A stretch of DNA of 5,397 nucleotides. Origin: a virus. Taxonomy: Duplodnaviria; Heunggongvirae; Uroviricota; Caudoviricetes. The position numbers and the translations under genes are program-made. Positions within the stretch are counted from its first letter, which is position 1; the number at the start of each line of letters is the position of its first letter. Where the stretch lies: the IMG/VR virus record IMGVR_UViG_648276662_000024. The stretch is one strand, 5' to 3'. Below the pieces are notes generated by a model. It searched no databases, was not told where the DNA came from, and saw nothing but the letters and a program-made list of their open reading frames with translations. Shown here one piece after another: positions 52-92 of the stretch.

Positions 52-92
52 AAAAAACCCCCCCCCCCCCCCCCCCGGGGGGGGGTTTTTTT
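52..92. repeat. Homopolymer palindrome A6-C19-G9-T7 (A 52-57, C 58-76, G 77-85, T 86-92); terminator-like G:C hairpin with flanking A and T runs
   Basis: Seen in sequence by direct counting. The C and G runs can pair into a pure G:C stem; the flanking A6 and T7 give the look of a bidirectional intrinsic terminator. The C19 versus G9 asymmetry and the pure homopolymer composition are unusual and could also reflect slippage-prone DNA or a sequencing/assembly artefact. Confidence 0.6.

What the first reader, a model, noticed from the sequence alone, without database searches (positions are those of the whole stretch)
52..92. Unusual A6-C19-G9-T7 homopolymer palindrome immediately upstream of the major tail gene
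A run of 19 C directly abutting a run of 9 G, flanked by A6 and T7, sits 18 nt before the major tail protein RBS. It would fold into a pure G:C hairpin with flanking U-runs on either strand, so it looks like a bidirectional intrinsic terminator or attenuator, but natural terminators rarely have pure homopolymer stems. Long G/C homopolymers are also classic slipped-strand mispairing tracts, so tract length could vary and modulate read-through into the tail operon. A third possibility is a sequencing or assembly artefact (homopolymer mis-call or a join). A spurious minus-strand ORF (47-247) is created purely by this tract.
Basis: seen in the sequence. Interest (0 to 1): 0.55.

Follow-up and report, generated by a model that had tools for sequence, protein, structure and literature searches.

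The report
False assembly join, not a terminator
The A6-C19-G9-T7 tract is really in the sequence, but it marks the point where one 2010 draft E. coli assembly glues the end of the chromosomal dacA gene region onto the middle of a prophage, overwriting two ordinary terminator hairpins, so it is almost certainly a sequencing or assembly artefact and not a regulatory element.

Summary
The tract exists exactly as described: A6 52-57, C19 58-76, G9 77-85, T7 86-92. Chance does not produce it. It is also a breakpoint between two unrelated loci.

- **Left flank.** Window 1-58 is the E. coli core chromosome directly after the dacA stop codon. It is present in 5424 of 5426 complete genomes and always continues into the dacA terminator and ybeD.
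- **Right flank.** Window 83-5397 is a lambdoid prophage tail module, one base different from strain HM670. There it is always preceded by gp17 and a conventional terminator, identical in 22 of 22 relatives read.
- **Non-native bases.** Only 59-82 (C18G6) match neither parent.
- **Uniqueness.** No complete E. coli genome, phage record, viral, metagenome or species-representative contig carries the junction.
- **Source.** The window is the last 5.4 kb of scaffold GG772711.1 of the draft assembly GCA_000164355.1 (E. coli MS 21-1).
- **Length fit.** The tract is exactly as long as the dacA 5' stem arm plus the whole prophage hairpin laid end to end, with every minority base changed to C or G.

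Similar C(n)G(m) tracts are common at contig ends in draft assemblies. My verdict is a false join through miscalled GC-rich hairpins (about 85%). It is not a real feature of phage biology, and interest is low.

The parts
1..58 (+). Chromosomal E. coli sequence: the 58 bases that follow the dacA stop codon (dacA-ybeD intergenic region), including the native A6 (52-57) and the first C of the dacA terminator stem.
   Evidence: matches 5424 of 5426 complete E. coli genomes. There it continues as CTCCCGCC-TTCT-GGCGGGAG and then ybeD; in the source scaffold dacA ends immediately before window base 1.
59..82 (.). The only bases native to neither parent locus (C18 + G6). This is the core of the artefactual tract.
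   Evidence: position-by-position comparison with the HM670 prophage; native dacA terminator. One search gives the ungapped 33/41 fit to dacA arm plus prophage hairpin.
58..85 (.).
   Evidence: Absent from viral contigs as an exact tract. The junction is absent from all collections searched.
83..109 (+). Native prophage sequence resumes here: the last GGG of the terminator stem, T7 (86-92), the spacer, and the RBS AGGAG (99-103).
   Evidence: identical in 22 of 22 related prophages.
110..814 (+). Major tail protein gene (234 aa, with a C-terminal Ig-like domain).
   Evidence: phrog_158, 1.9e-109; the exact protein is listed in 9492 blocks of the collection, and in all 10 places shown it is preceded by gp17.
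814..1502 (+). Tail assembly chaperone pair (G-like 814-1200; T-like 1212-1502 in the -1 frame), with an A8 run at 1189-1196 just before the G stop codon.
1549..4776 (+). Tape measure protein gene (1075 aa). Its exact sequence occurs in a single contig of the public collection, which identified the source.
   Evidence: The single difference from HM670 is at base 3248.
4754..5397 (+). Minor tail protein M-like gene (4754-5110) and the first 96 codons of the L-like gene. The scaffold ends 2 nt after the window.
   Evidence: This end is multi-copy in E. coli genomes (median 2, up to 7 places per genome), which is an ordinary repeat-caused contig end.
47..247 (-). Spurious 66-aa ORF that reads through the tract.
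   Evidence: no family match, and it overlaps the major tail gene on the opposite strand.

Best explanation
The tract is not a biological element. It is a local defect in the draft assembly of E. coli MS 21-1 (GCA_000164355.1, scaffold GG772711.1). It marks a false join between the 106-kb chromosomal part of the scaffold, which ends at the dacA terminator, and a 5.3-kb prophage piece, which begins at the terminator upstream of the major tail gene.

Both native sequences at the break are GC-rich inverted repeats that carry GGC motifs: CTCCCGCC-TTCT-GGCGGGAG and ACCCACCCGCC-GCT-GGCGGG.

The route I infer is as follows. Short-read chemistry miscalls and loses coverage at such hairpins, and the miscalled base copies the preceding base. 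This yields reads that decay into C runs on one strand and G runs on the other. These low-complexity words are the same for both hairpins. The assembler therefore treated them as shared sequence and walked from dacA into the tail operon. The true links, dacA to ybeD and gp17 to the major tail gene, were dropped.

In the real genome the major tail gene is most likely preceded, as everywhere else, by gp17 and the ordinary terminator.

Shown here: the chimeric nature of the junction, its uniqueness, the source assembly, the length fit, and the abundance of the same kind of tract in other draft assemblies. Inferred: the sequencing platform and the exact path the assembler took.
For: 1. The flanks are two unrelated loci.
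- Window 1-58 is the dacA 3' flank, present in 5424 of 5426 complete genomes.
- Window 83-5397 is a prophage tail module with one mismatch to HM670.

2. The junction is found nowhere else.
- No place covers at least 80% of window 1-109 in 5426 complete genomes.
- None of the 11 phage records or 8 plasmid-collection records that match spans the junction: the phage matches all start at base 67 and the others stop by base 66.
- A gapped junction pattern gives 0 hits in viral, species-representative genome and metagenome contigs.

3. The exact tape measure protein occurs in one contig only, the draft scaffold GG772711.1. There the gene order is mrdA-rodA-rlpA-dacA, then the tract, then the tail genes, then the scaffold end. 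The strain name comes from PMC8211649.

4. The native sequences are constant.
- The prophage terminator is identical in 22 of 22 relatives.
- SCU-172, which is 100.0% identical over the 4.5 kb of chromosome left of the tract, has dacA-ybeD-lipB as usual.

5. The defect is confined to 24 bases. Both flanks are 99.98-100% identical to complete genomes.

6. The tract has exactly the length of A6 + CTCCCGCC + ACCCACCCGCC + GCTGGCGGG + T7. It matches that string at 33 of 41 positions without gaps. All 8 differences convert a minority base to the run base, and the C-to-G switch falls at the native arm/loop boundary.

7. C(>=14)G(>=9) tracts are abundant in draft genomes, MAGs and viral contigs: more than 120 loci in one collection and 87 in the other. 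They lie mostly within about 100 nt of contig ends or beside N gaps.

8. Nakamura et al. [quoted passage not shown] 9. E. coli DNA fetched here has no C or G run longer than 7 in 228 kb.

10. The right end of the window lies in multi-copy tail genes, a normal short-read contig break.
Against: - No reads were available, so the join has not been shown to lack read support.
- The sequencing platform and assembler of MS 21-1 could not be verified here.
- A standard de Bruijn walk needs words that span the C-to-G switch and a C run as long as the word size. The exact route to C19 is therefore not explained.
- The tract is clean. Most junk tracts in other assemblies sit inside messy alternating G/C runs.
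- The tract lies 5.4 kb from the scaffold end, not within about 100 nt of it.
- The length fit has one free parameter: where the prophage segment is taken to start. Only the G9 part is a parameter-free match, and about 4% of the 222 other tracts seen also have G9.
- The other contigs of the same assembly could not be reached, so the expected loose ends (a contig starting at ybeD, a contig ending at gp17) were not seen.
Confidence: 0.85

Rival explanations
1. The junction is real but the homopolymer is not. Strain MS 21-1 carries a genuine rearrangement, for example a large inversion or transposition. Its breakpoints lie in the dacA terminator and in the prophage terminator, two quasi-palindromes that share CCCGCC...GGCGGG. 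The true junction is something like AAAAAACTCCCGCC-ACCCACCCGCC-GCT-GGCGGG-T7, which short reads then miscalled into C19G9.
For: - The ungapped length fit to exactly that concatenation is 33 of 41.
- The two hairpins share 6-nt arms that could support illegitimate recombination.
- There are no N's at the join, and the consensus on both sides is excellent.
Against: - No other genome among 5426 has any such rearrangement.
- The reciprocal junction, gp17 to ybeD, was not found in viral contigs, the only collection scanned for it.
- Recombination at the shared 6-mer would give 17 nt between A6 and T7. The observed 28 nt requires an end-to-end join with no homology.
- The prophage piece is exactly what a short-read contig looks like: bounded by a hairpin on one side and a repeat on the other.
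- Misjoins in 2010-era drafts are far more common than megabase rearrangements between terminators.
Confidence: 0.07
2. The tract is real DNA and works. It would be an extremely stable pure G:C hairpin flanked by A and U runs that terminates or attenuates transcription in both directions ahead of the tail operon. Its C and G runs would change length by slipped-strand mispairing and so tune read-through.
For: - It fits a terminator pattern on both strands, with 9 G:C pairs followed by a T-run.
- Predicted folding energy is -27.8 kcal/mol, against -15.2 for the native prophage site and -21.1 for the native dacA site.
- Long C(n)G(m) tracts recur in a fixed context in some environmental phage contigs, so such tracts may exist in nature.
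Against: - It is unique to one draft scaffold.
- It is absent from all 22 relatives read base by base and from about 890 complete genomes that carry this tail module.
- No length variant exists anywhere.
- What lies upstream is not phage but the dacA flank, so it cannot be an evolved regulator of the late operon.
- It is not between promoter hexamers or inside a coding frame, as phase-variable tracts are.
- E. coli DNA sampled here has no G or C run longer than 7.
- Rfam gives only sub-threshold generic hairpin matches.
Confidence: 0.04
3. The tract is a wet-lab chimera, not a computational one. Two DNA fragments carrying enzymatically added homopolymer tails (terminal-transferase C-tailing with G-primed second strands, or dG/dC tailing as in old cloning protocols) were joined tail to tail, sequenced, and then taken into the assembly.
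For: - The structure is X-C(n)-G(m)-Y, that is, two sequences each followed by a 3' C-run on its own strand.
- The same 'sequence + C-run, tail to tail' layout recurs in many metagenome contigs.
- C19 is a typical tail length (from memory, not tested here).
Against: - There is no vector, adaptor or PstI-G(n) junction next to the tract. The CTGCAG at the window end is native prophage sequence that is also present in HM670.
- Both breakpoints fall precisely at hairpin stems and the length fit is in register. That points to a sequence-dependent reading error, not to random fragment ends.
- A single chimeric molecule would not normally win an assembly consensus.
Confidence: 0.04

Closest known systems
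Chimeric contig (misjoin) through low-complexity G/C sequence in short-read draft assemblies
   Same: Two loci that are never adjacent in complete genomes are joined by a run that belongs to neither. It is found in one draft only. The same C(n)G(m) motif is seen in more than 200 other draft or metagenome contigs, mostly at contig ends or N gaps.
   Different: This tract is clean, with a single C run and a single G run and native sequence resuming at once. It lies 5.4 kb inside the scaffold. Most other examples sit in messy alternating runs within about 100 nt of an end.
Illumina sequence-specific errors at inverted repeats and GGC motifs (Nakamura et al. 2011, PMC3141275)
   Same: Both native sites are terminator-type inverted repeats containing GGC(GGG). 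All 8 changed bases equal the neighbouring base. The G-rich half is changed to G, and the C-rich half (G-rich on the other strand) is changed to C. This is what strand-specific lagging would give.
   Different: That paper describes scattered miscalls in reads. It does not describe complete homopolymerisation in a consensus or a false join. I could not verify the platform used for MS 21-1.
Intrinsic (Rho-independent) terminators: the native dacA terminator and the native gp17/major-tail terminator
   Same: A GC-rich stem followed by a T-run, with an A-run upstream. The A6 and the T7 of the tract are in fact the native flanks of these two real terminators.
   Different: The stem is a pure homopolymer with no defined loop. 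It is not conserved in any relative and it joins two transcription units from different loci.
Phase-variable homopolymer tracts of contingency loci (Neisseria, Haemophilus, Campylobacter, Helicobacter; from general knowledge)
   Same: A long G/C mononucleotide run, which is in principle prone to slippage.
   Different: No length polymorphism is seen. The tract is not inside a reading frame or a promoter spacer. The host species does not use such tracts, and the tract occurs in one assembly only.
dG/dC homopolymer-tailing junctions from older cloning and RACE-type protocols (from general knowledge)
   Same: Runs of roughly 10-20 C or G at the boundary between two unrelated DNAs.
   Different: Those junctions place a G run between vector and insert and a C run at the other end of the insert. 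Here C and G abut directly and no vector or adaptor sequence is present.

Membership tests
Intrinsic terminator | GC-rich stem-loop followed directly by a U-run | tested here: met
   One search finds 9 G:C pairs followed by TTTTTTT on the + strand, with equivalents on the - strand. One search gives a minimum free energy of -27.8 kcal/mol. This is a formal pattern match only.
Intrinsic terminator | Sits at the end of a transcription unit in its genomic context, and is kept at the same position in related genomes | tested here: not met
   The upstream unit (dacA) and the downstream unit (tail genes) come from different loci. All 22 relatives read carry a different, conventional hairpin.
Phase-variable (slipped-strand) homopolymer tract | Tract length differs between strains, isolates or reads | tested here: not met
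   No other sequence has any version of the tract: 0 junction hits in the three contig collections and 0 of 5426 complete genomes. Read-level heterogeneity is not testable here.
Phase-variable (slipped-strand) homopolymer tract | Tract lies inside a coding frame or between the -35 and -10 promoter elements, so that its length switches expression | tested here: not met
   The tract ends 18 nt upstream of the ATG. The only promoter-like sites found are at 12-41 and 1552-1580, and neither spans the tract.
Assembly misjoin / chimeric contig | The two flanks map to loci that are not adjacent in any finished genome | tested here: met
   matches stop at base 65 or start at base 67 in every genome; dacA is followed by ybeD; the major tail gene is preceded by gp17.
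Assembly misjoin / chimeric contig | The junction is found in a single draft assembly and consists of sequence absent from both parents | tested here: met
   (one contig, GG772711.1); bases 59-82 are native to neither locus.
Assembly misjoin / chimeric contig | No reads or read pairs support the join, while reads support the native adjacencies | not testable with these tools
   Raw reads and the other contigs of GCA_000164355.1 could not be reached.
Illumina sequence-specific error (Nakamura 2011) | Trigger present: an inverted repeat and/or a GGC motif just upstream in the read direction | tested here: met
   The native sequences CTCCCGCC-TTCT-GGCGGGAG and CCCGCC-GCT-GGCGGG contain both triggers on both strands. 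The criteria are from PMC3141275.
Illumina sequence-specific error (Nakamura 2011) | The miscalled base copies the preceding base, errors are confined to reads of one direction, and the data come from an Illumina instrument | tested here: inconclusive
   All 8 substitutions equal the neighbouring base, but any homopolymer satisfies this trivially. Strand bias and platform are not testable here.
dG/dC tailing cloning junction | Homopolymer run flanked by vector or adaptor sequence, such as a regenerated PstI site | tested here: not met
   The flanks are native E. coli and prophage sequence right up to the runs. The terminal CTGCAG is native prophage sequence.

The most novel reading that the evidence does not exclude
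The tract is physically present in E. coli MS 21-1. In that case a spontaneous rearrangement fused the dacA terminator to the terminator upstream of the major tail gene. The fusion acquired a pure C19/G9 palindrome, which now acts as an unusually strong, slippage-prone, two-way transcription block in front of an orphaned tail gene cluster. This would be a natural example of homopolymer filler DNA at a bacterial rearrangement junction.
Probability: 0.04. Interest if true: 0.55.

Novelty: not a real feature. Interest (0 to 1): 0.08.

Why it matters
For phage biology it does not matter. The tail operon of this prophage family is preceded by an ordinary, invariant terminator hairpin.

The practical value is as a warning in three respects.
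- A widely reused Human Microbiome Project-type reference scaffold (GG772711.1, E. coli MS 21-1) very probably contains a chimeric join that places prophage tail genes next to dacA. That could mislead prophage boundary calls, synteny analyses and training data.
- The case gives a simple recipe for recognising this class of artefact. Look for a clean C(n)G(m) run whose two flanks map to different loci, each at a GC-rich hairpin.
- If the tract were real, it would be an odd case of homopolymer filler at a rearrangement junction. The evidence gives that little room.

Tried and rejected
**Searches that found nothing**
- The junction, using a gapped pattern that tolerates any 8-38 nt middle, in viral, species-representative genome and metagenome contigs: no hits.
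- The exact tract in viral contigs: no hits.
- The plasmid collection, to test for a cloned or engineered construct: only the chromosomal 57-66 nt matched, in records that are mislabelled chromosomes.
- The reciprocal junction, gp17 to ybeD, which a real inversion would create, in viral contigs: none.
- Rfam on window 1-400: only sub-threshold generic hairpin matches.
- The HMP bioinformatics paper, for the assembly method of MS 21-1: not stated there.

**Ideas considered and rejected**
- A recombineering or engineered insertion. Window 1-50 is exactly 50 nt after the dacA stop codon. I rejected this because native identity runs on to base 58, there is no cassette, scar or vector, and the source is a human-isolate draft genome.
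- PstI with dG/dC tailing, because the window ends in CTGCAG. I rejected this because that site is native prophage sequence and the scaffold runs 2 nt further.
- Recombination at the shared CCCGCC/GGCGGG microhomology. It predicts 17 nt between A6 and T7, but 28 nt are observed.
- Two-colour 'dark G' read tails. This is unlikely for a 2010 assembly, and such tails alone do not give a C run abutting a G run with native sequence on both sides.

**Checks that did not work**
- I tried to test the geometry of a possible inversion in strain 14EC020. That record does not start at the usual origin and the 49 kb I fetched did not contain dacA, so the geometry remains untested.
- I looked for relatives of a second A5-C15-GGC-G9-T6 site (L135) to see whether it too replaces a normal hairpin. 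No relatives were found.

Full report
**1. The observation**

It is not a chance feature. A C12G8 core allowing up to two mismatches is expected 0.00 times in 200 dinucleotide-preserving shuffles of the window.

The ORF at 110-814 is a major tail protein (phrog_158, E = 1.9e-109).

There are two small corrections.
- The T-run ends 18 nt before the ATG, not before the RBS. The AGGAG at 99-103 lies 6 nt after it.
- The minus-strand ORF 47-247 exists. Only its last residues (KKPPPGGGGGGVFY) come from the tract, and it matches no family.

**2. The tract lies on a breakpoint between two unrelated loci**

Every BLAST match of the first 1.5 kb either stops at base 65 or starts at base 67.

*Left side.* Window 1-58 is the sequence that directly follows the dacA stop codon on the E. 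coli chromosome. It is present in 5424 of 5426 complete genomes. There it continues as CTCCCGCC-TTCT-GGCGGGAG, the dacA terminator, and then ybeD.

*Right side.* Window 83-5397 is the tail module of a lambdoid, HK97-like prophage: major tail protein, G/T chaperones, tape measure, M, and the start of L. It is colinear with about 890 complete genomes and differs from strain HM670 at a single base, 3248. In those genomes the major tail gene is preceded by the tail completion gene gp17 and a conventional terminator, ACCCACCCGCC-GCT-GGCGGG-TTTTTTT. That terminator is identical in all 22 relatives I read base by base.

So the A6 of the tract is the native A-run of the dacA terminator, and the T7 is the native T-run of the prophage terminator. 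Only bases 59-82 (C18G6) belong to neither parent.

**3. The junction is unique, and its source is a draft scaffold**

- No complete E. coli genome has a place covering 80% of window 1-109.
- None of the matching phage or plasmid-collection records spans the junction.
- A gapped pattern that accepts any 8-38 nt between the two native flanks finds nothing in viral contigs, species-representative genomes or JGI metagenomes.

The exact tape measure protein of the window is on record in one contig only: scaffold GG772711.1 (111,315 bp) of GCA_000164355.1. A published table names this assembly E. coli MS 21-1 (PMC8211649).

The last 9.85 kb of that scaffold reads mrdA-rodA-rlpA-dacA, then the tract, then the tail genes, then the scaffold end. 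The window is an exact substring. It starts right after the dacA stop codon and ends 2 nt before the scaffold end, and there are no N's.

The chromosomal part is 100.0% identical over 4.5 kb to complete genomes such as SCU-172. That genome has the usual dacA-ybeD-lipB order.

The right end of the window lies in M/L tail genes that are multi-copy in E. coli (median 2, up to 7 places per genome). That is a normal place for a short-read contig to stop. The 5.3-kb prophage piece therefore looks like an ordinary small contig, bounded by a GC-rich hairpin on one side and a repeat on the other, that has been attached to the end of a large chromosomal contig which also ends at a GC-rich hairpin.

**4. 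The anatomy of the tract fits miscalled hairpins**

Lay the dacA 5' stem arm (CTCCCGCC, 8 nt) and the complete prophage hairpin (ACCCACCCGCC + GCTGGCGGG, 11 + 9 nt) end to end between A6 and T7. This gives a 41-nt string of exactly the observed length. It matches the window at 33 of 41 positions without gaps.

All eight differences turn a minority base into the run base: T, G, A, A, G to C, and C, T, C to G. The C-to-G switch falls exactly at the native arm/loop boundary.

Nakamura et al. 2011 (PMC3141275) showed three relevant things about Illumina Genome Analyser reads.
- The errors are confined to one read direction.
[quoted passage not shown]'

Both native hairpins carry GGCGGG on both strands. 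Lagging of this kind would push the G-rich half towards G in forward reads. In reverse reads it would push the other half towards G as well, which appears as C on the plus strand.

I take this as the likely origin of the runs, with caveats. Any homopolymer trivially satisfies 'same as the neighbour'. The C19 part of the fit has a free parameter. I could not verify the platform used for this genome.

**5. The same kind of tract is common assembly junk**

Nearly all are draft WGS or MAG contigs, often in messy alternating G/C runs, at contig ends or beside N gaps. The same scan found 87 viral contigs, and more than half of the tracts in them lie within 100 nt of an end of the stretch retrieved.

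This shows that C(n)G(m) runs are a recurrent product of sequencing and assembly. Our case is cleaner than most and lies 5.4 kb inside a scaffold, which I count as evidence against a trivial reading.

**6. What it would do if it were real**

The RNA would fold into a 9-bp pure G:C stem with a C loop, extended by A:U pairs, and followed by U7.

| Site | Predicted folding energy |
|---|---|
| Tract (window 40-112, + strand) | -27.8 kcal/mol |
| Native dacA terminator | -21.1 kcal/mol |
| Native prophage terminator | -15.2 kcal/mol |

The consensus scan calls it terminator-like on both strands. Rfam gives nothing near any gathering score.

However, it presupposes that the DNA exists, and the comparative evidence speaks against that. 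The slipped-strand reading has no support. There is no length variant anywhere, and the tract lies neither in a reading frame nor in a promoter spacer.

**7. Verdict**

| Explanation | Probability |
|---|---|
| False join in one draft assembly through miscalled, low-complexity versions of two GC-rich terminator hairpins | about 0.85 |
| Real rearrangement in MS 21-1 whose junction was miscalled | about 0.07 |
| Real tract with terminator or phase-variation function | about 0.04 |
| Wet-lab tail-to-tail chimera | about 0.04 |

Novelty class: not a real feature. Interest is low. The useful outcome is a flag on a public reference scaffold and a recognisable signature for this kind of artefact.

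Reads, PCR or long-read resequencing of MS 21-1 would settle it. The expected results are listed under next steps.

**8. What the real biology at this site is**

In every related prophage, a short invariant hairpin plus T7 sits between gp17 and the major tail gene, 6 nt upstream of the RBS. That is an ordinary intrinsic-terminator-like element inside a late operon. I did not study it further.

Noticed in passing
Loci L144, L145, L147, L149, L150, L165, L193, L211 (IMG/VR contigs from unrelated metagenomes), e.g. L147 2151-2193, 2560-2591, 3405-3443, 4640-4673; L193 11245, 11969, 12774: A recurrent context that looks genuine. A sigma-54-like -24/-12 box (TTGGCACG-N4-TTGCT) is followed immediately by a long C17-29/G8-27 tract. 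In many copies a conserved hairpin follows (TATCCCCTTGGGATACCCC ATTGTAC...). There are up to 4 copies per contig, 0.4-1.2 kb apart, across independent samples. In L145 and L150 two such boxes face each other across the tract. This could be a real repeated intergenic element of an unknown phage group, or a reproducible reading failure at a conserved structure.
   Followed up: partly
L135 11895-11934 (IMGVR_UViG_7000000018_000052, an actinobacterial-like phage contig): A near-twin of the finding, A5-C15-GGC-G9-T6, lies mid-contig between two ORFs that converge on it (11325-11873 + and 11937-12986 -). That is where a two-way terminator would be expected. No relatives were found to show whether it replaces a normal hairpin.
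   Followed up: partly
Loci L146, L158, L183, L205 (IMG/VR, metagenomes 33000062xx-83xx): A second recurrent context for a C16/G20-24 tract: AAGGCTGCCAC.CCCTGCCGCAG...CCTTCG, then the tract, then TGTGGAGTTTTTTTTGAATC. It is always close to a contig end.
   Followed up: no
window 1189-1200 and 1212-1502: An A8 run (GGTTAAAAAAAAGTAG) sits just before the stop codon of the G-like tail chaperone. The T-like ORF follows in the -1 frame. This is the expected programmed -1 frameshift site of lambdoid tail assembly chaperones.
   Followed up: no
window 3248: A single base (G, against T in HM670) is the only difference from the nearest complete prophage over 5.3 kb. It makes the tape measure protein unique to one public contig, which is how the source was traced.
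   Followed up: yes
window 12-41: A sigma-70-like promoter match (TTGAAA-18 nt-TATACT, 10 of 12) lies in the native dacA 3' flank, upstream of the dacA terminator position. It is present in the normal chromosome too.
   Followed up: no
window 5392-5397 and the scaffold end: The window ends in CTGCAG (a PstI site) 2 nt before the scaffold end, inside the L-like gene. The site is native prophage sequence, and the break coincides with multi-copy tail genes.
   Followed up: yes
L134 1-4452 (GG772711.1): The chromosomal side of the source scaffold is closest (100.0%) to strains SCU-172 and MSB1_4I and 99.8% identical to SMS-3-5. The strains with the best prophage matches (HM670, FDAARGOS_1301 and others) do not appear among the 40 best chromosomal matches listed. 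This is consistent with a mobile prophage but was not examined further.
   Followed up: no
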